Part shown: positions 23,423-64,000 of the stretch, one piece after another
Position numbering within the stretch: position 1 is the first letter of the stretch
Layout of the letters: each line of letters opens with the position of its first letter
From: Azolla caroliniana
Taxonomy: Eukaryota; Plantae; Polypodiophyta
Direction: 5' to 3'
NCBI GenBank assembly: GCA_043228905.1
Contig: JBHGNT010000015.1
Coordinates: 11,966,001 to 12,030,000 of the forward strand
DNA length: 64,000 nt
Notes under the pieces: generated by a model
The model's input: only the letters and a program-made list of their open reading frames with translations
What the model was told of the DNA's origin: nothing
The model's database searches: none
Translations under genes and position numbers: made by a program

Positions 23423-24647
23423 TGTCGTGACTTGAGAATAGGAGAGAGAAAGATAAGATGACAATAGAAGGTAGAGAGAGAGAGAGAAAGAAAGAACACT
23501 AGAAATGGAAAGAGAGTTTATATTATAAGAGAGCAAGGATTACAAAGAGTAAGCTAAGGGGCCAGAAACTAGTGTTGAACCAAATGAGTTGTGATGAGCA
23601 AGGATTACAAAGAGTAGGCTAAGGGGCCATAAATTGGTGTTGAACCAAATGAGTTGTGATTTCCATTGGTCTAGGGCCTTCCACCACACTTGACTTTGAT
23701 ACTTGGGGTGGAGTTGCGACCATCGAAGCATATGTTTCTGTTGGTCGGAAGCGTAACATTTGTTGGCGCTCAGAACGCCGCTCAAATAAGCGATTGTGTC
23801 ATCGCATGGCCCGACTTATTGCTTCAGTAAGAGATTTTGGATCATCATGGAAGGTAAGAAGTAAATCCTTCACATCATTGTGCAGAACTTGACGAAATTG
23901 GTCCATTAATGCCGCCTCGTCCCATGAAATTCACATGCTAGAAGGCGAAAATCTGTAGCATAAGTGGAAGCAGGACGATCTCCTTGTCGTAATTGCTGAA
24001 TTTTGTTTATTGTGGTCCTCATACTATCAGTGTCTCCAAAGTTGACTTGGAACTCATTAATAAACCCTTCAAAATCTTCTAATAATGGTGAGTGCTTCTC
24101 TAGGAGTGTTGCAAACCACACTAATGCAGTACTCGTTAACAAGGTACCAACTTGACCCACACGAGCAACATCAGTTGGGTAACGACTCGGATGCAATTTA
24201 ATCACAAGCCGTACTTGATTTAAAAATCCACGAAATTGAGACCTTGTACCATCAAACTTTGCCGACAGCCTAATCTTGGGTTCCTTCGGCGAGGTTTGAA
24301 CTTCCGCCGCTTGTCGTTGTAATAGAGTAGTCTCCAATTGATGCACTCGTTGAGATAATTCTTCATATTGTTGTACTTTCTTAGCACTTACTTGTTGTAG
24401 GTCTCCTAGCAATCTTTCATTTTTATGCTCAAATGCCACGAATTTGGTTGTTAGCATGTCGAGCTCGGAGAGAACACGCATATATCCTTGCTTGTTGACG
24501 GACTCCATAGTTGCGAGAGAAAATTGCTAGATTTGCTCAAATAAGGTTAAGATAAGAAGAAGAAGAAGTTGGAGAAGAAGAAAAGAGAGAGATTCGGTTT
24601 AAACTGTCGTGACTTGAGAATAGGAGAGAGAAAGATAAGATGACAAT

Positions 24648-24703
<56 letters not shown>

Positions 24704-25166
24704 ACACTAGAAATGGAAAGCGAGTTTATATTATAAGAGAGCAAGGATTACAAAGAGTAGGCTAAGGGGCCAGAAACTGGTGTTGAACCAAATGAGTTGT
24801 GATGAATGAATAGACACCTATTTATAGGTCCTTATGGAGTATTCTAGAATGTTCTAGACGATAGTTTGAACCGAATGAGTTGTGATGAATGAATATACAC
24901 CTATTTATAGGTCCTTATAGAGTATTCTAGAATGTTCTAGAATATTTTAGATATTTATGATATTTAATATAATCATGGAATATCCTAGGATGTTCTAGAA
25001 TACTCTAGAATGTTCTAGAGTACTCTAAATATCTTGTAATAAGTAATAATACATTTATTATAATTATACATCATATATGTTATTATAATGGTTAAAAGTC
25101 TAACATATAGACTAAGACATTTTGGGCTCGAATCCTTGTAAGGCCAAAATGTATGTCTTCATGACA
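23423..25166 (-). mobile_element. Internally deleted Tcn1/sushi-like gypsy element (gag only)
   Basis: TSD GTTGA on both sides. 5' LTR 24605-25166, truncated 3' LTR 23423-~23660. Gag 24508-~23660 (KFDGTRSQFRGFLNQVRL) is homologous to 59448-60617. Pol is absent. Confidence 0.88.
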
Positions 25167-28371: not shown

Positions 28372-29413
28372 TCGTTGGAGTATTTGCTAGAGATGCATTG
28401 TATGACTCCCTTGCAAATGGTTTTGCTGAGACCGAGGCGTATGTAGGCTCCGACCTGGTCCTTGGCATTTGTAACTGGCGTTCCGAACGTCGTTCGGAAA
28501 GCCGATTATCACATCGTACTGCTCGACTGATTGCCTCTATGAGCGTTTTGGTTCTTCAGGGAAAGTCAAGAGTAAGTCTTTGACATCATTTCATAGGCTA
28601 TATCAAAATTGCTCCATCAATGCTTGATCATCCCAGGGGATATCGGAGGCAAGTAGACGGAAATTTGTAGCTTAAGCGGAGGCTGGATGATCATGTTGAT
28701 GTAATCGTCGGATTTTGTTGATTGTTGTCCTTATGCTATCAGTATCTCCAAAACAGGCTTTAAACTCGCTTATAAACTCTTCAAAATTATTTAGTAATGG
28801 AGATTCCTTTTCTAACAATGGAGAAAACCATGCCAAAGCAGAGCCGCTTAGCAATGTGCCTACTAGACCCACTCGTGATGCATTGGTAAGATATTGGGAA
28901 GGATGCATTTGAATTACTAATCGTACCTGATTAAGGAATCCTCCGAATTGTGATCGCATTCCATCAAATATCATAGGAAGGCCGATCTTGGGTTCTTTAT
29001 GAATCCCTTGAGTACTTGGTCCTTGTTGTTGCAATGTTATAATGGTTGCTTCAAGTTGTTTCACGCATAACACCATCTCCCATGTTGTTGTTGCGTTTGC
29101 TGCTTTTCTAAAGAGATTTGTTGAAGACCCTCCAATAGCCATTGATTTTCTTGTTCCAATGCGAGAAACTTTTCTTTCAAGGATTGCAACTATGAGAAAA
29201 CGGATTGATATTCTTGAGTGCTAATAGTTGCCATAGTATTGGAGAAAGGAGGGATAAGAGGATTAGTATGAAGGAAGGGAGGAGTAAGAAGATAGAGGTA
29301 ATTCGGTTCAAACTGTTAGGAATAGTACTAAAGACGTAGAGGGAATTAGTACTAGAGCTACAGAAGGATTAGTACTATGAGTACTTAAGAGGAGAAGATG
29401 GTGTGGAACTAAC

Positions 29414-29461
<48 letters not shown>

Positions 29462-29771
29462 GGCAATAGAAGATATATATTATAAGGAGAAAAATACAAG
29501 AACAACTAGGAGGCTTAAGATTGGCGTTGAACCGAATTGGTTCGAAATAATGCCTTGTGCCTCTTTTTATAGTGCTGTCAGGAGTACTCCTGAAGTTTCT
29601 AGAATGTTCTAGAGAAATCTGGAATATACATCAATTATCTATAGTGAAATAATAAATGAAAACAATATTCTTTGTATTACAATGTATAGCTTAACTATAG
29701 GGCTTCAATCCATGTGACACAAGGTCATGGGTTCAAATCCTTTTAAAGCCATACTATGCTATATCATGACA
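28372..29771 (-). mobile_element. Truncated Tcn1/sushi-like gypsy element: 5' LTR (29314-29771) plus decayed gag
   Basis: LTR and gag are homologous to the element at 55421-61146 (HKEPKIGLP..FDG.RSQF, MPR.RSEPTYASV). Confidence 0.85.
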
Positions 29772-30200: not shown

Positions 30201-30711
30201 TACCCGGAGAGAGATCCGGATGCGGGGACATATTTGTGAATATGTTTGCCAAGGGCCCTCTAGGCTATATTTGTAAATAGCCCGAAAGTCATATGTGTAT
30301 AAATATGACTTAGGGCAAACAGTTTTGCTGTTGTTGCTCATTTTTCTGTTTTCCACTTAGAGGGAGCGAAGTGAGAGCAGCCGAGAGAGAGAGTGAGTGA
30401 GAGAGAGAAAGGAAGAGGTCGACGCCTCTGTGTAATACCGCCGCCTGTGGCGAGGACAGCGAGCTCAAGGTCGTCGCCTTGCAGCTCGCCATTGTACATT
30501 CCCTGCGTATAGTGATAGTTGGAGTCTTGCACTCCCGTGGTTTTTCCCGTCTAGGGTTTTCCACGCTAAACCCTGTGCATTCAAGTCTCTCTCTGTGTTT
30601 TTCGATATACTTCTGCATTGACTCGTGTTTCCTCGGTTGTGGCCGAGAGGTGACGGTTTAGAAAGCGTCAATTCCCAACAATCTGGTATCAGAGCGACAG
30701 CAGTGCAGAAA

Positions 30712-42344: not shown

Positions 42345-42387
<43 letters not shown>

Positions 42388-45300
42388 GAAGAGGTCGTTG
42401 CCTCTGTGTATTACCGCCGCCTGTGGCGAAGACAGTGAGCTCAAGGTTGTTGCCTTGTAGCTTCACCATTGTACATCTCTGTTTATAGTGATAGTTGGAG
42501 TTTGAGGACTCCCGTGGTTTTTCCCATTTAGGGTTTTCCACGTAAAACATCCCATGTACTCTTCTCTCTATTGTCTTCGTGCATTTTGTATTTCCTGTTT
42601 TCTGTGAGTTGATCCTATTCCTCGGTTGTGGCCGAGCACTGTTTGCAACAAGTGGTATCAGAGCACGGTTAACACAGAAAATGGAAGGCGGCGGTAGTGG
42701 GCCTCCGGGCATGATGGTGTTGAACTCACAGAACTACGCCGACTGGAAGATAAAGATGGAAGACCTTCTCATCTTCCGAGACCTGTACGAACCGATCGAC
42801 AATGCCGAGATACCCAAGGGGGTAATAGAGTCGGAGTGGAAGCTCCTGAACCGGAAAGCCGTAGCGACGATCCGGCAATATGTCGATGTAAGTGTCCTGC
42901 AACATGTGGCGAACGATATGAACGCCTATGAGATGTGGCAGAAGCTGTCCGGACTGTATGAGAGGAAGAATGCTCTGACCCGGACCTCCCTGATGAGGAA
43001 GATAGTGAATCTTAAGTACCGGGACGGCGAGAGCATGGTCGAACACGTCAGCACGTTCATGGGATTTGTGAACCAGCTTGCGGCGATCAAGTTCCCGTTG
43101 GATGACGCAATGCAAGCCATCATGCTGATGTGTACCCTTCCGGAGAGCTGGGAGAACTTGGTAGTTACGCTCAGCACCTCCTGTAAGGAAGAGAACTTGT
43201 CTTTACTAACGGTAAAGACAAGTATTCTAAATGAAGAAGCGCGTCGGAGAGATAAAGAACCGGCCTCCGACTCGAAGGCGCTGCTTACCGAATCGGAACG
43301 GGGAAGACAATGGAACCGGAGTCCGCAAAGACGGGAGAAGTCGGGGACACGGTCGCAGTTGAGGGGAAGACCTACATGCTTCTACTGTGGGAAGCCGGGG
43401 CACTTCCAGAAGAACTATCGGCATTTCCGGAAAGACAACGGAACCGACAGTACTGATTCGAAGAAGTCACCGGAGTGAAACGGTGCATACCAGGGAGCCA
43501 CGGACCGGAGAGGTCCGGATCGGCGAGGTCCGGATCGGCGAGGGCAGGACCGGAAAGGAACGACGGCACTCACGGCAAGTGAAGAAGAGATAATGCTCAT
43601 TACCGAAGAGAGGGAGCTAAACCTTGCCGGTGAAGAGATGACCTGGGTGGTCGATTCCGGAGCATCGTTCCACCTGACCCCGGAGAAGAAATACTTCTCA
43701 TCCTACACAGCCGGTGAGCACGGCTGTGTCCGGATGGGAAATGAAGGTACATGCCGGATTGCCGGCATAGGAGACGTGTGGCTGATGACATCAACCGGAT
43801 GCAAGATGCTGTTGAAGGATGTCCGACACGTTCCGGAGGTTCGATTGAACCTGATTTCGGCCGGGAGGCTAGACGATGAAGGCTACACGGGTAGCATCCG
43901 GAACGGTGTCATGAAGTTCAGCAAAGGGAGCCTGATAGTGGCTCGGGCCCGGAAGGTCAACACACTGTACCTGATGAATTCCCGGCTATGTCCGAAGGAG
44001 CTGAACGTGGCAGCCGACACTGCCGGTGAGCTGTGGCACAAGAGACTATGCCACATGAGTGAGAAGGGGATGAAGAGGCTTGCAGAAGACAACCTTATTC
44101 CAGTGAAGCATGTGCACCTGGAGAAGTGCACCGATTGCCTGGCCGGTAAGCAGAACCGAACCTCCTTCCACTCAAGGCCACCGACGAGACGTAGCGCACC
44201 ATTGGAGTTGGTACACACTGACGTGTGTCAAGTAGAAACGAAGTCACATGGCGGAGCCCAGTACTTCGTGACATTCATTGATGACCACAGCCGGAAGCTG
44301 TGGACGGCACCGTTGAAGACAAAGGACCAAGTGTTGTGCGTCTTCAAAGAACTCCACGCGAGAGTGGAAAGGGAATCCGGCAAGAAGCTGAAAACGATAC
44401 GAGCGGATAACGGAGGGGAATACCGGGGGCAGTTCCAGGAGTACTGTCGCTCGAAGGGAATCCGGCTCGAGTTTACTGTGCCGAAGACGCCGGAACTGAA
44501 CGGGCTGGCCGAGAGGATGAACCGGACCATAATGGAGAGGGTCCGGAGTATGCTGGCGCATGCGAAATTACCCAAGGGGTTTTGGGCTGAGGCAATGTCG
44601 ACGGCGACATACGTGATAAATAGATCACCCTCAATACCTTTGGACGGAGACACGCCGCAGAAAGTGTGGACCGGTAAGGAAGTGTCCTACCGGCATCTGA
44701 AGGTGTTCGGGTGTCTCGCATACGTGCATGTGGCAAAGGACCAGAGAGGAAAGCTAGATCCAAAGACCCGGCCATGCATATTCCTCGATTACGGCGACGA
44801 CGAGTTCGGCTACCGAGTATGGGACCCGGTCGACAAGAAGATATTCAGGAGTCGAGATATCATCTTCATGGAGGACAAGACACTCGCCGACTAGGAGTCG
44901 GAGAAGAAGATGAAGAGCTCCAAGTCAACCGGTGAGGATCAACTCTACGACGAGCAGTCCCGACCGGCAAGGGACCGGTTAGCACTCGAGGATCCGGCCG
45001 AAGACGGTGAAGAAACAGAACCGGCCGAGGAAGATGAAACTGATACCGGAACCGGCCCCGATCCTGAAATGGATTCGGATGAAGAGGAAACGGAGGAGCC
45101 GGTTACCGAAGCTCCGGAACGGAGATATCCTCTAAGAGAGAGAAGGGCCCCCCGGAGATTTCCGGAACCAGAGCACGTGCTGCTAACCGACGAGGGGGAG
45201 CCGGAGAGTTTTGAAGAAACAAAGCTTGACAACCATAGCCACAGGTGGTTAAGTGCCATGCAGGAGGAGATGGATTCCCTGCATGAGAACCACACATATG

Positions 45301-48300
45301 AACTTGTGGAGTTGCCGAAAGGTAAGCGGGCACTTCGAAACAAGTGGGTGTTCAAGCTGAAACCGGGAGATGCCGGAAACCCCCCGAGATACAAAGCCAG
45401 GATCGTGGTGAAGGGGTTCCAGCAGAAGAAGGGCGTCGACTTCGACGAGATATTTGCCCCAGTAGTGAAGATGACCTCCATCCGGACGGTGCTGAGCATA
45501 GCGGCAAGCATGGACCTCGAGGTAGAACAGATGGACGTGAAGACGACATTCCTTCACGGTGACCTCGAAGAAGAGATCTACATGCAGCAACCGGAAGGAT
45601 TCGAGAAGAAAGGGAAGGAGCACCTGGTATGCCGGTTGAAGAAGAGCCTTTACGGACTGAAGCAGGCTCCCCGGCAATGGTACCGGAAGTTCGACTCCTT
45701 CATGACTGACGAAGGGTACCACAAAACGCAGTCCGATCACTGCGTGTTTGTGAAGAAGTTCGAAGGAGGAGACTTTCTAATACTCCTCTTGTACGTGGAC
45801 GACATGTTGATCGTCGGACGGGACCAGGGCAAGATACGGATGCTGAAGAAAGCGCTTCACCGAACCTTCTCAATGAAGGACCTGGGTCCGGCGAGGCAAA
45901 TACTAGGGATGCACATCATCCGGGACCGGAAGAAGAAGCAGTTGTGGCTGTCAGAGGAGAAGTACGTGACAAAGGTGCTTCACCAGTTCAACATGTCGGA
46001 AGCAAGACCGGTCGGGTCAACCCTCCCAGCAAACTGCAAGTTGTCTAGCAAGCAAAGCCCCAAGACAAAGGCTGAGAAAGAGGACATGATGAAAGCACCA
46101 TATGCCTCTGCCGTCGGAAGCTTGATGTACGCAATGGTGTGTACAAGACCGGACATAGGATATGCAGTTGGAGTGGTGAGCCGGTACATGAGCAATCCCG
46201 GCAAAGAACACTGGAACGCGGTCAAGTGGATACTCTGATACCTGAAGGGCACGGCAAACGTGTGCCTCCGATTCGGCTCCGGTAAGCCCGAACTCGACGG
46301 CTTTACCGATTCGGATATGTCGGCTGATGCAGATACCAGCCGGTCCACATCAGGGTATGTGATGATGTATGCAGGGGGAGCTGTTTCGTGGCAGTCGAGG
46401 CTGCAGAAGACGGTTGCGTTGTCAACCACGGAAGCGGAGTACATGGCGGCTGTTGAAGCCGGCAAGGAAATAATATGGATGAAAGACTTCATTAGAGAGC
46501 TCGGTATCCGGCAGGAGGAGTACTGGCTCTACTGCGATAGTCAGAGTGCCATCCACCTTGCGAAGAACGCGGCCTACCATTCCCGGACGAAACACATCCA
46601 GCGTAGATACCACTGGATCCGGGAAAGGATAGAAGACAAGGAGTTCGTGCTGACGAAGATCCACACGGACGAGAACGGGTCGGATATGCTGACCAAGGTT
46701 CTCACACCCGACAAGCTAGAAGCATGCCGGAAGAGGATCGGATTGGAGAGACATCCCATGCCGAAGTGAAGGGGGAGTTTGTTGGGATTTCGGTCCCTCC
46801 GGATGGGATGTCCGGAGATGAATGACGGCAATCCCGGTTACGGTTACGGTTACGATTCCGGATCCAGATGATGAAGACCCCGGCTACGGAGCCGGATGAT
46901 GAAGACCCCGGCTACGGAGCCGGATGATGAAGACCCCGGCTACGGAGCCGGATGACGAATGTACCCAGAGAGAGATCCGGATGCGGGGACATATTTGTGA
47001 ATATGTTTGCCAAGGGCCCTTGAGGCTATATTTGTAAATAGCCCGAAAGTCATATGTGTATAAATATGACTTAGGGCAAACAGTTTTATGTTGTTGCTCA
47101 TTTTTCTGGTTTTTCACTTAGAGAGAGCTAAGTGAGCAGCCGAGAGAGAGAGAGAGAGAGAGAGAGACAAAGTGGTCGTTGCCTCTGTGTATTACCGCCA
47201 CCTGTGGCGAAGACAGTGAGCTCAAGGTTGTTGCCTTGTAGCTTCACCATTGTACATCTCTGTTTATAGTGATAGTTGGAGTTTGAGGACTCTCGTGGTT
47301 TTTCCCATTTAGGGTTTTCCACGTAAAACATCCCGTGTACTCTTCTCTCTATTGTCTTCGTGCATTTTGTATTTCCTGTTTTCTGTGAGTTGATCCTATT
47401 CCTCGGTTGTGGCCGGGCACTGTTTGCAACAGTATGTAGAAAGTGTGATTTGTGTCAACGGATGGGCCAACCCGCGGAGGGCGCAAGGATGCTACACCAG
47501 CCCGTATTACCGCTAGACCCCTTCCAAAAGTGGGGATTGGATTTTATAGGGCCCTTCACATCGGCAGCAGCCCGTACGGGCAATAAATACATATTGGTAG
47601 CTACGGATTATTGCACCAAGTGGGTAGAAGCAAAGGCACTACGTGAAAATACGGCGACCGTCACAACCAGATTCCTTTACGAGCACATCTGGTGCCATTT
47701 TGGCTGTCCGATTGAGCTCATCAGTGACCAGGGGAGTGACTTTCTCAATACGGTGGTTCGGGAACTAACACATCATTACACCATAGTCCATAAAAAGAGT
47801 ATGCTATATTATCCACATGCGAATGGGTTTGCAGAATCCACCAACAAGACGTTGTAGACCATCTTGAAGAAAATCGTCAATGAAAATAGAACGGACTGGG
47901 ATACCAAATTACAGAGTGCGTTATGGGCGTACAGAACCAGCTACAAAACAAGCATACATTCAACACCGTTTCGACTAGCGTTTGGGCTGGAGGCTGTGAT
48001 GCTAGTCGAATTCGAATTCAGGTACGGGATCGACTATCGGAAGCCAAGTCGGAGGAGGTACGGCTCCACCAGCTACTTGAACTCAGGGAAAAACGCGTAC
48101 ACAGCATGGTTGTGTTGGAGTAGGAACAACGACGACGTAAAGCGTTTGTGGATCGACATCGGAATGCAAGAGAAAAGGAGTTTACCGTCGGTCGGGCGGT
48201 GCTGGTTTTTCAAACCCGCATGGGCCATATGCCAGGGAAGTTACGCTTCCGTTTGACCGGCCCATACTGGATAATTGGAACGGAACAAGGCACATTCCAA

Positions 48301-51532: not shown

Positions 51533-51920
51533 CGGGATGGGTTCGACGTGCCAGGGCACTGTCCCACAGGCGTGCCATGTGTTGTCCACTGGAATAGTAA
51601 CCGACAGACAAGAGCATAGGAATAAGAAATAATATAAGATCATAATGCATGTTGACAGGAACTGTACGCTCCTTCTACGCAACGCTCGGCCACAATCGAG
51701 CTTAGAATCATACACAGAAAAAACGGGAAATAAACACGACACAGAGAAGAGAAGAGTACACAGGATGTTTACGTGGAAAACCCAAAGAGGGAAAAAACCA
51801 GGACAGCCCACAGGTTGCAAACTATCACTATGTTAGAATGTACAACAGTGAGTTCACGGAGGCAACGACCTCGTGCTCACGATCTTCGCCACAGGCGGCG
51901 GTTACAACAGAGGCAACGAC

Positions 51921-51952
<32 letters not shown>

Positions 51953-54900
51953 ATACACGGTTACGCGCTATCTCTCTCCTTCCACCAACAAGAACAACAA
52001 CAACAGAACACTAAAAAGTTTGCCCTAAGTCATATTTATACTAATATGACTTTTCGGCTATTTACAAATATAGCCTCGATGGACTCTCAGAAACATATTT
52101 ACGAATATGTCTCTTCATCCGGTGAGCATTCCTCACCGGTTCTGCACCATCCGGCTCTCCGTAGCCGGGTACTCCTCATCCGGTTCTCACCAGGTTTGTA
52201 CTATTCGGCTCTCCGTAGTCGGGTACTCATCATTCGGTTCTCACCGGGTCTGCACCATCCGGCTCTCCGTAGCCGGGTACTCATCATCCAGTTCTCACCG
52301 GGTCTGCACCATCCGGCTCTCCGTAGCCGGTTACTCCTCATCCGGTTCTCACCGGGTCTGCACCATCCGACTCTTCGTAGCCGGGTACTCCTCATCCGGT
52401 CTTCACCAGGTCTGCACCATCCGGTTTCGGCATTGTTCTTCTCCCTTCCCATTCGGAGGGACCTGTCTCCCAACAAACTCCCCCTTCACTCCGGCATGGG
52501 GTGTCTTACTAGACCGATCCTCTTCCGGCATGCATCCAACTTGTCGGGTATCATAACTTTTGTCAGCATATCAGACCCGTTCTCGGCCGTGTGGATCTTC
52601 GTCAGCGCGAACTCCTGGTCATCTACTCTTTCCCGGATCCAGTGATACCTTCGCTGGATATGCTTCGTCCGGGAATGGTAGGCCGCATTCTTAGCAAGGT
52701 GGATGGCACTTTGACTGTCGCAATAGAGTCAGTATTCATCTTGCCGGATACCGAGCTCTCCGATGAAGTCCTTCATCCATAATATTTCCTTGCCGGCTTC
52801 CACAGCCGCCATGTACTCCGCCTCCGTGGTTGACAACGCAACCGTCTTCTGCAGCCTCGACTGGCACGAAACAACTCCCCCTGCATATGTCATTACATAC
52901 CCGGATGTAGACCGGCTGGTATCCACATCAGCCGACATGTCCGAATCGGTGAAACCGTCAAGTTGAGGTTTTCCGGAGCCGAATCAGAGACACATATTTG
53001 AAGTTCCCTTCAAATACCGGAGTATCCATTTGACCGCGTTCCAGTGCTCCTTGCCAGGATTGCTCATAAACTGGCTCACCACTCCGACTGCGTATCCTAT
53101 ATCCGGTCGGGTACACACCATTGCGTACATCAAGCTCCCGACGGCAGAGGCATATAGAATCTTCATCATATCCGCCTTCTCTACTTTTGTCTTCGGGCTT
53201 TGCTTGCCGGATAACCTGTAGTTTGCCGGAAGTGTCGATCCGACCGGTTTCGCATCTGACATGTTGAACCGGTGAAGCACCTTTGTCACGTACTTCTCCT
53301 ATGATAGCCATAATTGCTTCGCTGACCGGTTCCGGATAATATGCATCCCCAGCATCTGTCTTGCCGGACCCAAGTCTTTCATTGAGAAGGTCCGGTTGAG
53401 GGCCTTCTTCAGCATCGGTATTTTGACTTGGTCCCGTCCGATGATCAACATGTCGTCCACGTACAGAAGGAGTATCAGGAAATCGCCTCCTTCAAACTTC
53501 TTCACAAACACGCAGTGATCGGCTTGCATCTTGTGGTACCCTTGATCGTCCATGAAGGAATCGAACTTCCGGTACCATTGCCGACGGGCCTGCTTCAACC
53601 TGTAGAGACTCTTCTTCAACTGGCATAACAGATGCTCCTTCCCTTTCTCCACGAATCCTTCCGGTTGCTGCATGTAGATCTCCTCTTCGAGGTCGCCGTG
53701 AAGGAATGCCGTCTTCACGTCTAGATACTCTACCTCGAGGTCCATGCTTGCCGCTATACTCAGCACCGTCCGGATGGAGGTCATCATTACTACCGGGGCA
53801 AATATCTCGTCGAAATCCACGCCCTTCTTCTGCTGGAACCCCTTCCGCACGATCCTGGCTTTGTATCTCGGGGGGTTGCCGACATCTCCCGGTTTCAACT
53901 TGTACACCCACTTATTTCAGAGTGCCTGCTTTCCTTTCGGCAACTCCACCAATTCGTACGTATGGTTCTCATGCAGGGAATCCATCTCATCTTGCATGGC
54001 ACTTAACTATTTTCGGCTGTGGGTATCATCCTTCGCTTCTTTGAAGCTTTCCGGCTCCCCCTCATCGGTCGGCAGCACATGCTCTGCATCCGGAAATCTC
54101 CGGGGGGCCCTTCTCTCTCTGAGAGGATATCTCCGTCTTCGGGCTTCGGTAACCGGTTCCTCCATTTTCTCTTCATTCGAATCCGATTCGGGGTCTTGGT
54201 CGGTTCCGGTCTCAGCTTCCTCTACTTCTTCTTCTGCCGGTTCGGTATCCTCACCGTAACCGGCTGGTTCCTCGAGTGCTAACCGGTCTCTTGCCGGTTG
54301 AGTCTGCTCATCGTAGAGTCTATCCTTACTGGTCGACTCGGAGTTCATTATCTTCTTCTCCGACTCCCAGTCGGCGAGCGTCTTGTCCTCCATGAAGATA
54401 ATATCTCGACTCCGGAATACCTTCTTGTCGACCAGGTCCCACACTCGTTAGCCGAACTCATTGTCACCGTAACCGAGGAATATGCATGGCCGGGTCTTTG
54501 GATCTAACTTTCCTCTCCGGTCCTTAGCTACATGCACGTACGCGAGACACCCGAACACCTTCAGATGCCGGTAGGACACTTCCTTACCGGTCCATACTCT
54601 CTGTGGCGTGTCTCCGTCCAAGGGTGCTGAGGGTGATCTGTTTATCACATATGTCGCCGTCGACAGTGCCTCAGCCCAAAACTTCTTGGGTAGTTTTGCA
54701 TGCGCTAGCATACTCCGAACCCTCTCCATTATGGTCCGGTTCATCCTCTCGGCCAGTCCGTTTAGTTCAGACGTCTTCGGCACGGTAAATTTGAGCTGGA
54801 TTCCCTTCGAGCGACAGTACTCCTCGAACTGCCCCCGGTATTCACCTCCGTTATCTGCTCGAACCGCCTTCAGCTTCCGGCCAATTTCTCTTTCCACTCT

Positions 54901-55863
54901 CGCGTGGAGCTCTTTGAAGACGGATAACACCTGATCCTTCGTCTTCAACGGTGTGGCCCACAGCTTCTGGCTGTGGTCATCTATGAACGTCATGAAGTAC
55001 TGCGCTCCGGCATGTGACTTCGTGTCTACTTGACACACATCAGTATGCACCAACTCCAGTAGTGCATTACGTCTCATCGGTGGCCTTGGTCGGAAGGAGG
55101 TCCGTTTTTGCTTACCGGCCAGACAATCAGTGCACTTCTCCAAGTGCACGTTCTTCACTGGAATGAGGTTGTCGTCTGCAAGCCTCTTCATCCCCTTCTC
55201 GCTCATATGACACAGCCTCTTGTGCCACAACTCACCGGCAGTGTCGGATGCCACGTTCACTTCTTCCAGACATAACCAGGCATTCATTAGGTATAGTGTG
55301 TTGACCTTCCGGGCCCTTTGCTAAACTTCATGACACCGTTCCGGATGCTACCCGTGTAACCTTCATCATCTAGCCGACCGGCTGATATCAGGTTCAGACG
55401 AACCTCCGGAACGTGTCAGATGTCAGGAACTCTATTAAGGCAGAGAAGGAATTAGTACTAAAAGAAGGATTAGTACTATTGTTGGGGAATAGTACTAAGA
55501 CAGAGAAGGATTAGTACTATGAGAGGTGTCGAACTTTGAGAGAAGGAATGAGTGAGTGAGAGAGAGAGAGAGAGAGAGAGATGATGCGAAAGATATATGT
55601 ATTATATGAAGGAAGATATACAACAGTAGTTAGAAGGCTTAAGACTGGCGTTGAACCGATTTGGTTCGAACTAATGCCTTGCGCCTCCTTTTATAGTGTC
55701 TTCAGGAATACTCCTGAAGTTTCTAGAATGTTCCAGAGAAATCTGGAATATACATCAATTTCCCAATAAAACCTAAATGAAAATAATATCCTTCAAATTA
55801 CAATTCATAACCTAATGGTAAAGTCTCGACCCGTGTAACAAAAGGTTATGGGTTCGAGTCTAG

Positions 55864-58800
55864 TTATGACACTATCCCCCCTTTAAAACGACGAGTTCCA
55901 CGAGTCGTTTTGGATTGAGGACCCGGTTTCTCGGGATATCGTCGATGGAAGTCTTCTAGAAGAGCACGAGCATTGGTCACATTCTCGATCGGTTCCCAAG
56001 TACGCTCGCTGGGACTATATCCTAGCCAATCGACTAGATAGTAGAGCTTGTTGCGAACAATCTTGGAATCGAGGATGGCAGCGACCTCATATTCAGGTCC
56101 ATCTTCGAGCTCGATAGGAGGTGGTGGTTGTATAGTACGTCCTGGGATAGTGCTCTCGTGATAGGGTTCGAGGAGAGAACTATGAAACACCGGATGTATC
56201 CGAAGTTGCGGAGGTAGCTCGAGACGAAAAGCGACATCATTAATCTTCCCGATAATACGGAAAGGACCTAATCGCCGATAATCCAACTTCTCACATGGGC
56301 GAGTAGTCTTGATGTGTCGTCGTAGCAGCCACACCCGATCTCCAATGTTAAAACTGGATGGAAGTCGATGACGATCTGCGTAGTCCTTGTGTGATTGTTG
56401 AGCTTGCTGGAGTTGAGTAGATAAATCCGCTTGTATCTTGCGTAACCGCTCCAAACGATCCTCCGCGCAAGGATTTGTGGACACTTCTGGGGTTTCAAGG
56501 ACGCACCACCGGGGATGATATCCCGTATAAGCGTAGAATGGCGTGACTTTAGTCGATGCGTGGATAGCGTTATTATAGGCAAATTCGGCGAACTGAAGAA
56601 TATCTGCCCAGTCATTCTGATGATAGTTGAGAAAGCACCGCAGATACTGCTCCAGTGTTTGATTTGTTCGTTCGGCTTGACCGTCGGTTTGTGGGTGGTA
56701 GCCGGAGGAGAGGTTACAAGTGACCTTCAGCATTTTAAAAAGGTGCTTCCAGAATTTTGACACAAACTGGGGTCCACGATCGCTGATGATATTATCAGGG
56801 AGTCCATGATGCCGACATACTTCCCGCATGACAATTTCGGCGGTGTCTTCACTAGATATTTCTTTAGTACATGGTAAGAAATGAGCCATCTTCGTATATC
56901 GATCCACCACTGTGAGAATCGCACTGAATCCCTTGGAGACTGGAAGATCTGTAATGAAGTCAAGAGCAATGGATTGCCATGGCTTGCTTGGAATTGGTAA
57001 TGGTTCTAATAAACCATATGGATGATGTCTTGGCATTTTCGCTCTGCAGCATGTATCGCAAGTCCGAACAAAATCTTCGACAAATTGTCGCATACGGGGC
57101 CACCAGAATGATCGTTGTACTAAATCTAATGTTTTAGTACTACCAAAATGTCCTGCTGTATATGTGTCATGGCAATTTTGTACTACTCGAAGGCGGCAAG
57201 AACCATTAGGAACATACAAAAGTTCTTTAAAGAAGAGTAATCCATCACAGTATTTGAATTGCCGATAATCCGTACCTGGTGATTGTGATTGTGAACATGA
57301 CGCTCGAGAGGGGTCAATTTGTGCTAGTATAGCTTGGGCGAAAGCGTCAGTCTTCAAGTCCTCACGTATAGTATTGGTAATGTCGGAATCCACGGGTATG
57401 TCAAAGACCTGTGCTGCTTGCAGTCGTGCTGGACCCAAGATTACTTGCTTCTGGTTATCGAAAGCTGGCTCACCGGGACGTGGTGTTAGATACGAACGCC
57501 GTGATAATGCATCTGCCTTCCCTTGGTGCTTCCCCGGACGATATGTAATTTTGAAGTCGAAGCGTGTGAGGAAGTGGGCCCACCGAGCTTGACGTCGATT
57601 CAGTACACGAGCATCTTGAAAGTAGGCAAGGTTCTTGTGGTCACTGAATACAGTGACCTGATGAGGAGATCCCTCCAGGAAATGCCTCCATTGCATAAAA
57701 GAATCAACTATTGCTAATAGCTCTTTATCATGAATTTCGTAGTTGATTTCGGCGGCGTCAAACTTACGGGAGTGGAAAGCCACAGGATGTAGCTTCTCGT
57801 CGTTACCCTGTTGTGACAGAATGCTCCCCAATGCGAAATCCGATGCGTCAGCTTCGATAATGAATGGTTTTTCCGGATCCACATGACCTAAAATTGGAGC
57901 TGATGTAAACGCCTTCTTAAGACTCTCGAAAGCCATGTCCGTCTCTTTAGACCAAATGAATGATTGTCCCTTCCTGGTGAGCTGTGTGAGAGGCAGCACA
58001 ATTTTTGAGTAATTTTGTATGAACTTCCGGTAAAAATTTGCAAAGCCTAGGAAGCATTGCACATCCCGCACCGAATGCGGAGTGTGCCATTCTATCACCG
58101 TTTTGACCTTGGCTGGGTCCATAGATATGCCTTCTGAGGAGATGACATAGCCGAGAAATTCCACTTGGTTGCACCCGAAACTACATTTCTCTAACTTTGC
58201 ATACAGACCATGTTCTCGAAGTCGTTTTAGTACTAATAGTACATGAGAATCATGTTCTTCTTGGGTCTTTGAATAAACCAGTAGATCATCCAAATAGATG
58301 ATCAAAAAATCATCCAAGAGATCTCGAAATATATCATTCGCCATGTGCTGGAAGACTGCCGGCGCATTAGTGAGTCCGAACGGCATGACCGTATACTCGA
58401 AGTGCCCATATCTGGTGCGAAACGCGGTCTTCCATTCATCTCCTGGTCGGATCCGTACGAGGTTATAGGCTCCTCGTAAGTCGATCTTCGTGAAGAACCT
58501 GGCACCGTTGATCCGTTCTAAAAGACTTGAGATAAGGGGAAGAGCATACCTATTTCTTACTGTGACCTTATTCAAGCCACGGTAATCTACAACGAGTCGA
58601 AGCGAGCCATCTTTTTTCTTGACGAAGAAAATGGGTGCGCCGGCTAGAGATTTCGAATGCCGAATGAAACCGTTCTCCAAATTCTCCTCTATATAGGCTC
58701 GAAGGACTTCTAGCTCGGTGGGTGACAAATTGTAGATCGGCCCCCATGGCGGCTCTTTTCCCGGTTGTAAGTCGATGGCGCAATCGTACGGCCGATGATG

Positions 58801-59460
58801 AGGAAGTGTGTTGGCTTGTACTTTATCGAACACATCAGCATACTGACGATACTTCTCGGGAAGTTGAACGGTGGACTCCTCTTTGGTGGTGCTGGAGGGT
58901 TGTACTGATATTGCGAAGAGAAACATTTCCTCCTTGCGCCCTTCCTTACGCAACTGACGTAGCGAAATGGTTGCAACCTTCTGGGCAGGTCCTTGGGTTT
59001 GTTGCAACCGGATTTCCCTTGTCCTCCAATCTATGTCTGGGTTATGTAACTCGAACCATGGTAATCCTAAAACTATGGGGTGTTCTGGAATACTAATAAT
59101 ATTAAATGATACTACACATGTTAAGTTATCTAGGACAATATTAACGGGTTCCGACTCTTCTATGATATTACCAGAAGCAATGGGACGACCATCAATGACT
59201 ACTACTGAGGCTGGACATGGGAGCTTTCTGAGAGATATCTGATGAGCTCGGGCAAAATTCCTATCCATGAAGCAAGAATTAGCTCCGGAATCTAGAAGGG
59301 CTAAGGTATGTACTGGAGGGGTACTTTTAGTACTAACTGCTACTTGGGCTACGAACACATCACTAACTTGCTTAGAGGGAATGGAACCACTAATGGGCTG
59401 TACAGATCTAGGGCTGTCCAACCAAACGGCTCCTATTTTGGCTGGACTTAGTCGTTTAAC
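55864..59460 (-). CDS. pol: Pol (protease, RT, RNase H, integrase, chromodomain), -1 frame relative to gag
   Basis: Motifs LLDSGA, YLDD, DASDF, H..GH..C..C, DRGPQF, GPF and chromodomain EYEVAAILDS..YLVDWLGY..RTWEP. No ATG start; the frame is open from 59475. Confidence 0.95.
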   Translation of the reverse strand, partial: VKRLSPAKIGAVWLDSPRSVQPISGSIPSKQVSDVFVAQVAVSTKSTPPVHTLALLDSGANSCFMDRNFARAHQISLRKLPCPASVVVIDGRPIASGNIIEESEPVNIVLDNLTCVVSFNIISIPEHPIVLGLPWFELHNPDIDWRTREIRLQQTQGPAQKVATISLRQLRKEGRKEEMFLFAISVQPSSTTKEESTVQLPEKYRQYADVFDKVQANTLPHHRPYDCAIDLQPGKEPPWGPIYNLSPTELEVLRAYIEENLENGFIRHSKSLAGAPIFFVKKKDGSLRLVVDYRGLNKVTVRNRYALPLISSLLERINGARFFTKIDLRGAYNLVRIRPGDEWKTAFRTRYGHFEYTVMPFGLTNAPAVFQHMANDIFRDLLDDFLIIYLDDLLVYSKTQEEHDSHVLLVLKRLREHGLYAKLEKCSFGCNQVEFLGYVISSEGISMDPAKVKTVIEWHTPHSVRDVQCFLGFANFYRKFIQNYSKIVLPLTQLTRKGQSFIWSKETDMAFESLKKAFTSAPILGHVDPEKPFIIEADASDFALGSILSQQGNDEKLHPVAFHSRKFDAAEINYEIHDKELLAIVDSFMQWRHFLEGSPHQVTVFSDHKNLAYFQDARVLNRRQARWAHFLTRFDFKITYRPGKHQGKADALSRRSYLTPRPGEPAFDNQKQVILGPARLQAAQVFDIPVDSDITNTIREDLKTDAFAQAILAQIDPSRASCSQSQSPGTDYRQFKYCDGLLFFKELLYVPNGSCRLRVVQNCHDTYTAGHFGSTKTLDLVQRSFWWPRMRQFVEDFVRTCDTCCRAKMPRHHPYGLLEPLPIPSKPWQSIALDFITDLPVSKGFSAILTVVDRYTKMAHFLPCTKEISSEDTAEIVMREVCRHHGLPDNIISDRGPQFVSKFWKHLFKMLKVTCNLSSGYHPQTDGQAERTNQTLEQYLRCFLNYHQNDWADILQFAEFAYNNAIHASTKVTPFYAYTGYHPRWCVLETPEVSTNPCAEDRLERLRKIQADLSTQLQQAQQSHKDYADRHRLPSSFNIGDRVWLLRRHIKTTRPCEKLDYRRLGPFRIIGKINDVAFRLELPPQLRIHPVFHSSLLEPYHESTIPGRTIQPPPPIELEDGPEYEVAAILDSKIVRNKLYYLVDWLGYSPSERTWEPIENVTNARALLEDFHRRYPEKPGPQSKTTRGTRRFKGGIVS

Positions 59461-60617
59461 TCTTCTTCTAATTGGCTAAGGACATCAAATTTGTTTGCGA
59501 GATTCGGACTATTAGTACTATTAGGACTATTATGACTATGAGGACTATCAGAGATTCCTATTGAAATAGACTCGGGTTTAGTATAGTCAGAACTAACAAC
59601 GACTTGGTTTACCTGCCTTCTTGGTCTATGGGGACAGTTTATCGCGATATGCCCTGGTCCACCGCAATAAAGGCATAATCGGTTTGTTCGGCGTCGTTGC
59701 TTTTCCTCCTCCGATAGCGGCCCACGACGACGTGTAGTGTCAATTTCCATTGGAGTTGGAGTACTTACTGGAGGCGCATTATGTGACTCCCTTTGAAAAG
59801 GTTTTGCTACCACTGAGGCATAGGTAGGCTCGGATCTTGCCCTCGGCATCTGAAATTGTCGTTCCGAACGTCGCTCGAAGAGGCGGTTGTCACATCTGAC
59901 CGCTCGACTGATTGCTTCTGTTAATGATTTTGGCTCTTCAGGGAAAGTCAGGAGTAAATCCTTGACATCGTTGCGTAGACCATAGCGGAACTGCTCCATC
60001 AATGCTTGATCATCCCAGGGGATATCGGCGGCGAGTAGGCGGAAATCTGCAGCATATGCGGAGGCTGGACGGTCACCTTGGCGTAATCGCCGGATTTTGT
60101 TGATTGCAGTCCTTATGCTGTCAGTATCTCCAAAACATGCTTTAAACTCACTTATGAATTCTTCAAAATTATTTAGTACTGGAGATTCCTTTTCTAGTAG
60201 CGGAGCGAACCATGCTAATGCTGAGCCATTTAACAACGTGCCTACTAAACCCACTCGTGATGCATCGGTGGGATATCGGGACGGATGCATTTGAATAACT
60301 AACCGTACCTGGTTAAGAAACCCTCTAAACTGCGATCGCGTTCCATCGAACTTCGTGGGAAGGCCAATCTTGGGTTCTTTATGAATCCCTTGTGCTCCGT
60401 GCCCTTGTTGTTGCATTGCTACGATGGTTGCTTCGAGTTGTTGCACGCGTAACGCAAGTTCCCCATGCTGTTGTTGCGTTTGCTGCTTTTCTAAGGAAAT
60501 TTGCTGAAGATCCCCCAACAAGCGTTGATTTTCTTGTTCCAAAGCATGAAACTTCTCTTTCAAGCATTGAAATTCCGAGAAAACGGATTGATACTCTTCA
60601 GCGCTAACGGTGGCCAT
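59448..60617 (-). CDS. gag: Gag (coiled coil, sushi/PEG10-type capsid, CCHC knuckle)
   Basis: 389-aa ORF with PTKFDGTRSQFRGF, TPMEID and CLYCGGPGHIAINC. Confidence 0.93.
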   Translation of the reverse strand: MATVSAEEYQSVFSEFQCLKEKFHALEQENQRLLGDLQQISLEKQQTQQQHGELALRVQQLEATIVAMQQQGHGAQGIHKEPKIGLPTKFDGTRSQFRGFLNQVRLVIQMHPSRYPTDASRVGLVGTLLNGSALAWFAPLLEKESPVLNNFEEFISEFKACFGDTDSIRTAINKIRRLRQGDRPASAYAADFRLLAADIPWDDQALMEQFRYGLRNDVKDLLLTFPEEPKSLTEAISRAVRCDNRLFERRSERQFQMPRARSEPTYASVVAKPFQRESHNAPPVSTPTPMEIDTTRRRGPLSEEEKQRRRTNRLCLYCGGPGHIAINCPHRPRRQVNQVVVSSDYTKPESISIGISDSPHSHNSPNSTNSPNLANKFDVLSQLEEELND

Positions 60618-60963
60618 GGGATGAAGGAAAAGGGAAATAAGAGACTAGTAGGAAAGGAGGGAGAGAAAAGACCAGACACCAAAATCGGTTCAAACTGTCA
60701 GGAACTCTATTAAGGCAGAGAAGGAATTAGTACTAAAAGAAGGATTAGTACTATTGTTGGGGAATAGTACTAAGACAGAGAAGGATTAGTACTATGAGAG
60801 GTGTCGAACTTTGAGAGAAGGAATGAGTGAGTGAGAGAGAGAGAGAGAGAGAGAGATGATGCGAAAGATATATGTATTATATGAAGGAAGATATACAACA
60901 GTAGTTAGAAGGCTTAAGACTGGCGTTGAACCGATTTGGTTCGAACTAATGCCTTGCGCCTCC

Positions 60964-61013
60964 TTTTATAGTGTCTTCAGGAATACTCCTGAAGTTTCTA
61001 GAATGTTCCAGAG
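60964..61013 (-). promoter_or_regulatory. TATA box plus heat-shock-element array in the 5' LTR U3 (copy at 55689-55738)
   Basis: TATAAAA (minus strand, 60970-60964) next to TTCagGAAtaCTCctGAAgtTTCtaGAAtgTTCcaGAG (60976-61013). Confidence 0.75.
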
Positions 61014-61082
61014 AAATCTGGAATATACATCAATTTCCCAATAAAACCTAAATGAAAATAATATCCTTCAAATTACAATTCA

Positions 61083-61135
61083 TAACCTAATGGTAAAGTC
61101 TCGACCCGTGTAACAAAAGGTTATGGGTTCGAGTC
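61083..61135 (+). promoter_or_regulatory. tRNA-like A-box/B-box cassette at the LTR 5' terminus, antisense to the element (copy at 55808-55860)
   Basis: TAACCTAATGGTAAAG...GGGTTCGAGTC. Confidence 0.6.
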
Positions 61136-62540
61136 TAGTTATGACATCAGACATCCTTCAACAGCAACTTGCATCCGGTTGGTGTTGTCAGCCACACGTC
61201 TCCTATGCCGACAATTCGGCATGTACCTTCATTCCCCATCCGGACACAACCATGATCACCGGCTGAGTAGGATGAGAAGCATTTCCGGTCCGGGGTAAGG
61301 TGGAACGACGCTCCGGAGTGTACCACCCAGGTCATCTCGTCGTCGGCAAGGTTTATCTCACTCTCCTCGGTGATGAGCATCAACTCTTCTTCACTTGCCG
61401 CAATTGCCGTCGTCCCCTTCCGGTCCGGCCCCCTCCGGTCTTTACCATTCCGGTCCGGTGTCCGCTTCGAATCGGTACCGTCGGTTTCCTTGTCTTTCCG
61501 GAAATGCCGACAGTTCTTCTGGAAGTGTCCCGGCTTGCCGCAATAGAAGCAAGTAGGCCTCCCCCTTGACTTTGACCGTGTCCCCGACTTTTCCCGGTTC
61601 TGGAGACTACGGTTTCTTTGTCTTCCGCGTTCCGATTCGGTAAGTAGCGCTTTGGAGTCGGAGCTCGTATCTTTATCTTTCCAACACGCCTCCTCATCTA
61701 GCAAGCTCGACTTTACTCTCGCTAGGGATAACCGTTTTCCTTCCGGCCTGGCGTTGCCCAAAGTGACAACCAACGTCTCCCAGCTATCCGGGAGGGAACC
61801 GAGCAGGAGTAGCGCTAGTACCTCATCGGCGAGAGGTACTTCCAATGAAGTTGCCTGGTGGATCAGCCCCTGAAAGGCATTCATGTGCTCCGCCATGCTG
61901 GAGCCATCTTGGTACCGGAGTCTTACTAGCTTCCGGAATTCCAAACCTGATTAACAACATTTTTGTTTTGGAACATTATGCCGATCTTCTCCCAGAGCTC
62001 ATGAGCCTTGCTCTCTTCATTGAAGTTGTTGTACAGGCTCATGTCGATGAAGCACCGTATGTACGCCGTTGTTTTCATGTGCCTCACCTCCCATATCGCG
62101 GCGTCGATTTTGTCCGGTCTCTTGTCCCTGAACTGAACCGGCAGCCAGAGGTCTTTAACCACGAGAATGTCCTTCATCTTCGACTTCCACACTGAGTAGT
62201 TGGAGCCGGTGAGCTTGAACATGCCGCCAAACGATTCGTCCATTTTCTGTCTCGTTTTGCTGTGATACCACTTGACAGGAACTGTACGCTCCTTCTACGC
62301 AATGCTCGGCCACAACCGAGCTTAGAATCATACACAGAAAAAACGGGAAATAAACACGACACAGAGAAGAGAAGAGTACACAGGATGTTTACGTGGAAAA
62401 CCCAAAGAGGGAAAAAACCACGGCAGCCCACAGGCTGCAAACTATCACTATGTTAGAATGTACAACAGTGAGTTCACGGATGCAACGACCTCGTGCTCAC
62501 GATCTTCGCCACAGGCGGCGGTTACAACAGAGGCAATGAC

Positions 62541-62585
<45 letters not shown>

Positions 62586-64000
62586 CACGGTTACGCGCTA
62601 TCTCTCTTCTTGCACCAACAAGAACAACAACAATAGAACACTAAAAAGTTTGCCCGAAGTCATATTTATACTAATATGACTTTTCGGCTATTTACAAATA
62701 TAGCCTCGATGGACTCTCAGAAACATATTTACGAATATGTCTCTTCATCCGGTGAGCATTCCTCACCGGGTCTGCACCATCCGGCTCTCCGTAGCCGGGT
62801 ACTCCTCATCCGGTTCTCACCAGGTCTGCACCATTCAGCTCTCCGTAGTCGGGTACTCATCATCCGGTTCTCACCGGTTCTGCACCATCCGGCTCTCCGT
62901 AGCCGGGTACTCCTCATCCGGTTCTCACCGGGTCTGCACCATCCGGCTCTCCATAGCCGGGTACTCCTCATCCGGTTCTCACCGGGTCTGCACCATCCGG
63001 ATCTCCGTAGCCGGGTACTCCTCATCTGGTCTTCACCGGGTCTGCACCATCCGGTTTCGGCATTGTTCTTCTCCCTTCCCATCCGGAGGGACCTGTCTCC
63101 CAACACATGTAATGGTTCACGCAGGAAGCGTGAACGGCTGGCTAAATAGACCCTGCGTATATAAAGGGCAGAAAACCTCTGATAGAGGGGCGTGTAATTT
63201 TGGAATGTAAAGGAACGTATCATAATAGAATTCTATCTTCTCGAAAATTCTGTGTATAGCTACGGCTAATCTACTATATGTCTGGAATACCTGAGCGTGT
63301 AAGAACGTAAGTGTAACCATTGCTAAGGAGTCGGTTGTAGCCGTCTCCCTTATACACTGATAGGTTACAGGGAACATTCCCCTACACATTGCGCATAGAC
63401 GCCTATTTGTTGTTCCACAACCACTGGGAGGTCTAGGTCAAAGGACTGACCGCAGATCGTGTTCCTAAGCGGTAACAGTGCACTTGGCCTTTAGTTGATC
63501 TGGCTTCTCTGAATCTTGAACCGAATCGGTTTCCTCCGATTCATTCCAACTCTTGTTTGAATCGGTCGCTTCCGATTCGTTCCGGCTCTTGTCCGAGTCG
63601 GTGTTCTCCAACTCGTCTTCCGGTTTCAGGTCCTTCACCACATCAGGCCATGTCCGGGTAGTGGTTTTCTCCTTCCGGTCGGCTCTATCCTTCTTGACTC
63701 TGCCATCGCTACTGCTCATTCTGACTTGTTCGGATGTGCCAACTTCCTTTGTCGACTCAGCTTCCTTTTTCCTCTTGTCTCCCCCTTTGTTGGTTCTTCC
63801 CTTTTTGGTTTCTTGTCCAGTGTCGTCAATAGTTTCTTAGCCTTTGCCCGTTCTCCCCCTCAAGTGCGGCACGTCGAGATGCTGAACACCAAGCATTTCG
63901 GTGAAGTGCTGCAACTTGTCGGATCCGAGCGGTTTGGTGAAGATGTCGGCAACTTGCCGATCCGTTTGAACATACCAAAGTTCGACTTCACTGCTCAGGA

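What the first reader, a model, noticed from the sequence alone, without database searches (positions are those of the whole stretch)
60682..60937. tRNA-independent self-priming PBS with a compensatory base change between related elements
Seen: no TGG-type PBS follows the 5' LTR. The minus strand instead reads ...TGACA GT TTGAACCGATTT (60693-60682). Its exact 12-nt complement AAATCGGTTCAA lies in the LTR at 60937-60926 and starts 33 nt downstream of the TATA start, at the expected transcription start. In the related element both sites have changed together: PBS TTGAACCGAATT (29311-29300) and LTR AATTCGGTTCAA (29538-29527). The third relative has a degenerate pair (PBS ~24591-24602; LTR ~24783 and ~24866). 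Established: S. pombe Tf1 primes reverse transcription with the first 11 nt of its own mRNA, and this is proposed for Tf1/sushi-group elements. Inference: this plant family self-primes, and the covariation suggests selection on the pairing.
Basis: partly seen in the sequence, partly recalled or inferred. Interest (0 to 1): 0.72.

Follow-up and report, generated by a model that had tools for sequence, protein, structure and literature searches.

The report
Self-priming plant retrotransposon, covarying primer site
This intact plant jumping gene has no tRNA primer site; instead the 12 bases after its left repeat match the predicted start of its own RNA, and the two sites change together across many related families, so it likely starts copying itself with a piece of its own RNA, a route already predicted for this group of elements.

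Summary
Observation confirmed. The site belongs to an intact 5,726-bp Ty3/gypsy chromovirus (identical 451-bp LTRs, 5-bp TSD, aromatic-cage chromodomain) with the features of the plant Tcn1 clade. Its PBS pairs 12/12 with an LTR site 33 nt after TATA. Across 17 primer/PBS types from this genome and metagenomes, 127 of 136 non-anchor positions pair (shuffled mean 68, max 100). PBS sequences predicted from LTRs alone were found (147 hits, control 0). Selaginella SM-Tcn1, published as lacking self-priming evidence, has the same layout with another sequence. In two young families, mutations pile up from exactly PBS+1 (44-fold and 11-fold), as expected if reverse transcriptase runs off the primer's 5' end; other families show this weakly or not at all. 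Self-priming is likely (~0.9) but not new: Neumann 2019 predicts it for 83% of 1,500 Tcn1 elements, and this scan noted it in two other moss genomes. Covariation may be partly templated, not only selected. No start-site data were available. Extras not found in my searches: the Tf1 'pretzel' third helix is unsupported, and most LTRs carry a conserved antisense Pol III A/B-box cassette.

The parts
60696..61146 (-). E1 5' LTR, 451 nt, TG...CA
   Evidence: 100% identical to 55421-55871; TSD TCTGA on both flanks
61083..61135 (+). Antisense tRNA-gene-like A box (from 61083) and B box (61126-61135) in U3, 10 nt from the LTR's outer end; copy in the 3' LTR at 55808-55860
   Evidence: no cloverleaf called
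60965..60970 (-). TATA box; first T is 33 nt upstream of the primer site
   Evidence: same spacing in other families
60926..60937 (-). Predicted self-primer (first 12 nt of the predicted RNA)
   Evidence: exact complement of the PBS; start site inferred, not mapped
60918..60925 (-). Conserved flank after the primer (cRcYagtY); predicted bulged C plus short helix with the LTR end; candidate cleavage signal
60694..60699 (-). LTR end GACA plus 2-nt spacer GT
60682..60693 (-). Primer-binding site TTGAACCGATTT
60677..60681 (-). Hypervariable patch starting at PBS+1
   Evidence: 29 distinct 5-mers among 64 family copies against 1 upstream
59448..60617 (-). gag, 389 aa, capsid and CCHC knuckle
55864..59475 (-). 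pol frame (-1 to gag, 28-nt overlap): PR-RT-RH-IN-SH3-chromodomain with Y/W/Y cage residues; no internal stop
55872..55884 (-). Polypurine tract
55421..55871 (-). E1 3' LTR
29300..29771 (-). E2: LTR, primer site 29538-29527 and PBS 29311-29300 of a decayed relative
24592..24909 (-). E3: PBS 24602-24592 and duplicated TATA/primer sites (24876-24866, 24793-24783) of an old relative

Best explanation
This is an intact Tcn1-like Ty3/gypsy chromovirus whose primer-binding site pairs with the predicted first 12 bases of its own RNA, so it likely primes reverse transcription from that RNA instead of a host tRNA. Inferred steps: Pol II starts at the A 33 nt after TATA (60937). Bases 1-12 fold back on the PBS two bases past the LTR, pointing their 3' end into U5. 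The element's RNase H would cut after base 12, at a bulged C within a short conserved helix, as Tf1's does after base 11. The freed 12-mer would prime minus-strand DNA. Later, plus-strand strong-stop DNA would copy the still-attached primer to its 5' end and add untemplated bases. That would leave the variable patch seen from PBS+1 and could carry primer changes into the PBS, on top of selection for pairing. Shown here: the anatomy, the pairing, its covariation, the fixed spacing and the variable patch. Inferred from Tf1: start site, cleavage, priming, primer copying.
For: Pairing 12/12 with correct polarity and 2-nt offset. With sites picked by flanking motifs only, 142 copies with gag pair at 94-99% of PBS positions 4-11, 77% at position 12, and 5% and 13% at positions 13 and 14. 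Over 17 types, 127 of 136 non-anchor positions pair, against a shuffled mean of 68.2 (sd 6.8, max 100 of 20,000). Different paired types sit on separate supported gag branches, and one paired type recurs in two clades. Prospective tests: a PBS predicted from an LTR type seen gave 147 exact hits, control 0; a second predicted PBS was found in 3 of 12 loci, decayed in 1 more, and the other 8 showed no such PBS (solo, 3', truncated or unclear). Of 40 LTRs picked without regard to PBS, 25 had a PBS, 19 of these pair over 11 or more contiguous bases, and 20 of 22 agree at a toggling pair. TATA-to-flank spacing: 6,947 hits at the canonical spacing (control 5) against 27 at a shorter one (control 4). 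Duplex in the MFE of 21 of 22 leaders. Hotspot at PBS+1 to +5: 0.097 against 0.0022 events per base and copy in the E1 family (n=64), 0.075 against 0.0067 in E4 (n=16), 0.027 against 0.014 in a tRNA-Met-primed Copia control (n=30). SM-Tcn1 has the same layout, 12/12, 33 nt (read by eye). Tf1 mechanism: PMC7175516 and PMC11042837 passages.
Against: No RNA evidence: no start site, cleavage or cDNA end was observed. The hotspot is weak or absent in five other groups (E3b 0.010 vs 0.0038, E3old 0.033 vs 0.030, TTCG 0.064 vs 0.026, AAGGG 0.160 vs 0.142, E1b 1 event), and half the E1-family copies have T at PBS+1, so T-run slippage may contribute. The third Tf1 'pretzel' helix is not supported (mean z 0.03 over 41 leaders). 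Some copies carry primer/PBS mismatches, for example L355 in both LTRs and L109. Ten bases of the E1 PBS match the T-loop region of one tRNA-Gln-like sequence. The shuffle test does not correct for relatedness, and its 17 types include decayed single copies. The folds assumed that the RNA starts at the primer.
Confidence: 0.9

Rival explanations
1. A host tRNA or tRNA fragment primes at this PBS, and the LTR match is incidental.
For: The E1-type core resembles a tRNA T-loop; 10 of 12 PBS bases match internally in one tRNA-Gln-like call. My tRNA sample was incomplete: 110 calls, 13 isoacceptors, and the Copia positive control found no matching tRNA-Met 3' end.
Against: All PBS types begin TTG, not TGG, so no CCA end can pair. 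The other 15 of 16 types tested match any sampled tRNA over at most 9 bases, most over 5-7, yet each matches its own LTR site.
Confidence: 0.03
2. The duplex is a real RNA structure but serves packaging, dimerisation or translation, with priming by another route.
For: Covariation shows only that the pairing is kept, not what it does. The Tf1 pretzel is incomplete here.
Against: The duplex ends exactly 2 nt from the LTR end in every family, where a primer 3' end must lie; no other PBS exists; the mutation patch starts at the primer's predicted 5' end in two young families; the same layout primes Tf1.
Confidence: 0.05
3. Sub-question: the covariation is produced mainly by templated copying of the retained primer into the PBS, not by selection on pairing (still self-priming).
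For: About half of Tf1 cDNA keeps a copy of the primer (PMC11042837 passage). One C:G/T:A pair toggles among close subfamilies with few intermediates: 20 of 22 concordant, 95 of 95 in earlier own-genome copies.
Against: L355 has a primer change in both LTRs with an unchanged PBS. Length (11-12) and the flanks stay fixed while the middle turns over, which points to selection as well.
Confidence: 0.45
4. Sub-question: the variable patch after the PBS comes from slippage at the PBS's T run, not from reverse transcriptase running off the primer.
For: T at PBS+1 in 32 of 64 E1-family copies; the families with the strongest hotspot end their PBS in TTT.
Against: The other 32 have C, G or A; 29 distinct 5-mers; neighbouring T runs do not vary.
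Confidence: 0.25

Closest known systems
Plant Tcn1-clade chromoviruses (REXdb; Neumann et al. 2019, PMC6317226: passages and Additional file 5 read; Additional files 1 and 3 too large to see)
   Same: 5-bp TSD, size within 5,466-9,444 bp, overlapping gag/pol frames, cage-bearing chromodomain, self-primer of 10 or more bases within 0-5 nt of the LTR (predicted there for 83% of 1,500 elements).
   Different: In the passages read, that paper predicts by complementarity alone; covariation, fixed TATA spacing, the PBS+1 patch and the A/B-box cassette are not mentioned there.
SM-Tcn1 of Selaginella (Novikova et al. 2010, PMC2864245: passages and supplement S3 read; other supplements unreadable)
   Same: By eye in S3: TATA at 362, 12-nt site at 395-406 followed by caccagtc, LTR end 496, GT, then a 12/12 complementary PBS at 499-510; 76 of 89 residues identical to E1 in one RT block.
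   Different: Another primer sequence; the paper states that no evidence for self-priming was found; no A/B-box cassette visible by eye in its LTR.
Tf1/Tf2 of Schizosaccharomyces pombe and the Tf1/sushi group (PMC7175516, PMC4600332, PMC11042837, bioRxiv 10.1101/2022.12.06.519325: passages)
   Same: PBS complementary to the RNA's 5' end; 11-12-nt primer; chromovirus; untemplated additions and primer copying described for Tf1.
   Different: Shown experimentally in Tf1, only inferred here. The three-duplex pretzel is not supported here; a short helix next to the primer end is conserved instead.
Helenus / Cassandra TRIMs with Pol III boxes in the LTR (Kojima 2024, PMC10886601: passages)
   Same: tRNA-like A and B boxes carried inside LTRs.
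   Different: Those are non-autonomous, tRNA-primed, and proposed to be transcribed from that promoter; here the cassette is antisense in autonomous elements that have a Pol II TATA promoter.

Membership tests
Ty3/gypsy chromovirus | PR-RT-RH-IN order with C-terminal chromodomain | tested here: met
Tcn1 clade (REXdb) | Group I chromodomain with aromatic cage | tested here: met
   Y, W, Y at the cage positions, read; definition. Not exclusive to Tcn1.
Tcn1 clade (REXdb) | 5-bp TSD, 5.5-9.4 kb, overlapping gag and pol frames | tested here: met
   TCTGA; 5,726 bp; 28-nt overlap
Tcn1 clade (REXdb) | LTR complement of 10 or more bases starting 0-5 nt after the LTR; no tRNA PBS | tested here: met
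   12 bases, 2 nt after the LTR
Tcn1 clade (REXdb) | Placement in the clade on an RT-RH-INT tree with reference elements | tested here: inconclusive
   No tree with named references was built; by-eye identity of 76 of 89 residues to SM-Tcn1 RT and identical flank motifs; named hits are mostly fungi, algae and vertebrates at 39-58%
Tf1-type self-priming | PBS complementary to an 11-12-nt LTR site at the predicted RNA start | tested here: met
Tf1-type self-priming | The site is the mapped 5' end of the RNA | not testable with these tools
   only contigs were offered
Tf1-type self-priming | RNase H cleavage releases the primer, which is extended | not testable with these tools
   biochemical
Tf1-type self-priming | Three-duplex pretzel around the PBS | tested here: not met
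   no excess pairing of PBS-downstream sequence with R-U5 (mean z 0.03, 41 leaders); only a short helix beside the primer end. A crude test of a pseudoknot.
TRIMp3 (Helenus/Cassandra) | Short non-autonomous element | tested here: not met
   full gag and pol
TRIMp3 (Helenus/Cassandra) | Small-RNA-derived Pol III boxes in the LTR | tested here: met
   (antisense strand)

The most novel reading that the evidence does not exclude
These plant elements use a stripped-down, pretzel-less self-priming signal (free 11-12-nt primer sequence, fixed bulged-C helix at the cut site), their genomic copies record the RNA start site as a scar of untemplated bases after the PBS, and their LTRs carry a selected, antisense Pol III A/B-box cassette, shared with an unrelated Gypsy lineage, that acts as a TFIIIC-bound boundary or antisense promoter at the element's edge.
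Probability: 0.3. Interest if true: 0.65.

Novelty: new member of a known kind. Interest (0 to 1): 0.4.

Why it matters
Self-priming has been demonstrated in fission yeast and only predicted in plants. The covariation, the successful PBS predictions and the PBS+1 scar raise the plant case from a sequence match to a well-constrained model with a named cut site and a young, intact, high-copy family to test it in. They also settle the priming route left open for SM-Tcn1 in 2010. If the A/B-box cassette works, thousands of LTRs seed Pol III or TFIIIC sites through this genome. The core claim, though, is already in print as a prediction.

Tried and rejected
RNA evidence: no RNA holder listed; only contigs, which cannot show starts. 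Viral contigs gave no relatives. ARAGORN and Rfam found no tRNA or other family in the window or the LTR; ARAGORN at a lowered threshold gave inconsistent calls. Host tRNA set incomplete, positive control failed. One search kept only sites with 8 or more of 11 pairs and is circular; the counts I rely on come from motif-anchored. The nearest-neighbour counts had a tie-breaking artefact (31 false events in the Copia control) and were replaced. One search used a mis-set spacing and serves only as a short-spacing comparison. A GACACC/GGTGTC pairing near the E1 PBS looked like a pretzel helix but lies in the variable patch and is not shared. A functional tRNA in the LTR was rejected: acceptor, anticodon and outer T stems are not kept and the anticodon position holds 11 different triplets in 18 lineages. 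Levin 1995, Atwood-Moore 2006 and Esnault and Levin 2015 were not held; I saw only their reference-list entries.

Full report
1. Observation. The element E1 spans 61146-55421 on the minus strand, with two identical 451-nt LTRs, a 5-bp TSD and a polypurine tract. It sits inside a Copia element. Gag (389 aa) overlaps a -1 pol frame with PR, RT, RNase H, integrase and a chromodomain whose three cage residues are present. Two bases after the LTR comes a 12-nt PBS whose exact complement lies 33 nt after the TATA start. The polarity is right for priming: the complement's 3' end pairs with the PBS base nearest the LTR. E2 shows the A/T swap described. E3's two LTR sites come from an 83-nt tandem duplication.

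2. More than chance. One swapped pair is weak evidence, so I collected relatives: own-genome copies and 78 metagenome loci. An unguided search for the longest complement near gag returned the same arrangement with many different middles. To avoid circularity I then located the two sites by flanking motifs only. Of 346 inputs, 216 had both anchors and 142 of these had gag downstream. In those 142, PBS positions 4-11 pair at 94-99%, position 12 at 77%, positions 13 and 14 at 5% and 13%; positions 1-3 are anchors. Over 17 distinct types, 127 of 136 non-anchor positions pair; shuffling PBS among types gives 68.2 on average and at most 100 in 20,000 trials. This shuffle ignores relatedness, and some types are decayed single copies. 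On a gag tree of 36 rows (four decayed cluster representatives left out; six extra loci lacked enough gag) the paired types fall on separate supported branches, and the AAATTGG/CCAATTT type appears in two clades.

3. Prospective tests. An LTR type first seen predicted a PBS that was then found 147 times, control 0. A second type, seen, predicted a PBS found in 3 of 12 fetched loci and decayed in one more; the other 8 showed no such PBS (solo, 3', truncated or unclear LTRs). Forty LTR hits from contig C1, chosen without looking at the PBS, gave 25 with a PBS, of which 19 pair over 11 or more contiguous bases; at the toggling pair 20 of 22 agree (p = 0.003, copies not independent). The TATA-to-primer spacing is tight: 6,947 hits at the canonical spacing against 27 at a shorter one. 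The Selaginella type element SM-Tcn1, for which Novikova et al. 2010 found no evidence of self-priming, shows by eye the same TATA spacing, flanks and a 12/12 match with yet another sequence.

4. A footprint of the primer's 5' end. Near-identical copies differ sharply from the first base after the PBS: 29 distinct 5-mers among 64 E1-family copies against 1 upstream. Events per base and copy at PBS+1 to +5 are 0.097 against 0.0022 nearby (E1 family) and 0.075 against 0.0067 (E4, n=16); a tRNA-Met-primed Copia family gives 0.027 against 0.014 (n=30). Tf1 keeps its primer, copies it into plus-strand DNA and adds untemplated bases (PMC11042837 passage). A scar at this position is what run-off from the primer's 5' end would leave, which indirectly places the RNA start at 60937 (inference). 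Against: five other groups show little or no excess, and T-run slippage may contribute.

5. Structure. The duplex is in the MFE of 21 of 22 leaders folded from the predicted start. The Tf1 pretzel is not supported: sequence downstream of the PBS pairs with R-U5 no better than shuffles (mean z 0.03, 41 leaders). A bulged base and a short helix beside the primer's 3' end form in full in 28 of 41 and in part in 8 more; the anchors used select for part of this motif, but its constancy against a freely changing primer middle, and its presence in SM-Tcn1, mark it as the candidate cleavage signal.

6. tRNA rival. All PBS types begin TTG, so no CCA end fits. In 110 ARAGORN calls (13 isoacceptors; incomplete, positive control failed) the best internal match was 10 bases for E1, in a T-loop, and at most 9 for 15 other types.

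7. Mechanism. Self-priming as in Tf1, where bases 1-11 pair with the PBS and RNase H cuts between 11 and 12 (PMC7175516 passage). Confidence 0.9. Start site, cleavage and priming are inferred; no RNA data could test them. The covariation may arise from selection, from templated copying of the primer, or both.

8. What is known. Neumann et al. 2019 predict self-priming for 83% of 1,500 Tcn1 elements of mosses and club-mosses. E1 meets every listed Tcn1 feature; I did not build a tree with named references. The host is likely a non-seed plant, inferred from that distribution only. Two earlier notes of this scan report the same layout in other moss genomes. Searches (listings; papers read as stated under Closest known systems) showed no covariation analysis or PBS+1 scar for plant elements, but the primary Tf1 papers and Butler 2001 were not available, and the large REXdb supplements could not be seen.

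9. Side finding. U3 carries an antisense tRNA-gene-like A box and B box (consensus names recalled) at fixed spacing (35-36 nt in 26 of 27). It beats all 20 shuffles in 31 of 39 representatives, against 1 of 39 on the sense strand and 1 of 39 in gag; an exact pattern gives 4,409 genome hits, control 0. Across 18 lineages the boxes are conserved (0.72 and 0.81) and flanks and middle are not (0.48-0.50); tRNA stems are lost. The same cassette sits near the LTR end of a Gypsy element only 23% identical in Pol (L464), so it is not tied to self-priming. Searches (listings only) showed no description; Helenus TRIMs are the nearest. Function is untested; a decaying passenger remains possible.

10. Verdict. 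Real, well supported, a new member of a kind already predicted in print. Interest 0.40.

Noticed in passing
window 61083-61135 and 55808-55860 (+); L464:771 and 7602: Antisense Pol III-type A/B-box cassette near the LTR's outer end, conserved across most families and present in an unrelated Gypsy lineage; 4,409 exact-pattern hits in the genome.
   Followed up: partly
window 60681-60677 and family copies L001-L017, L203-L258: Substitution and indel hotspot beginning exactly one base after the PBS in young families.
   Followed up: yes
PMC2864245 supplement S3, bases 362-510: SM-Tcn1 has a 12/12 self-primer/PBS match that its describing paper did not find (by eye).
   Followed up: yes
window 51652-63250: E1 is inserted in the pol region of a Copia element whose LTRs are about 96-98% alike and hold a 54-nt tandem array.
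   Followed up: no
window 30017-35811 and 41955-47431: Two Copia relatives; the first has a tRNA-Met-type PBS at 30684 and a second LTR/PBS/gag start at about 35490 directly after its 3' LTR, as in a tandem.
   Followed up: partly
window 817 (-): A further A/B-box-like cassette outside E1-E3.
   Followed up: no
window 17533-20568 (-): Open frames of 197, 241 and 503 codons inside duplicated segments (10568-12200 / 17223-20036); the 503-aa frame has no Pfam hit.
   Followed up: no
L355 (G000:C1:11675600 and 11680550): Both LTRs share a primer change while the PBS is unchanged: a mismatched intermediate that transposed.
   Followed up: partly
window 60945-60926: In E1-type LTRs the bases just upstream of the predicted start repeat part of the PBS (GAACC) and could hairpin with the primer if transcription started further upstream; absent in E3- and E4-type LTRs.
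   Followed up: no
G000 contigs C5, C22, C4, C2, C11: Clusters of many tRNA-Lys(TTT)- and tRNA-Arg(TCT)-like copies (79 of 110 distinct calls).
   Followed up: no
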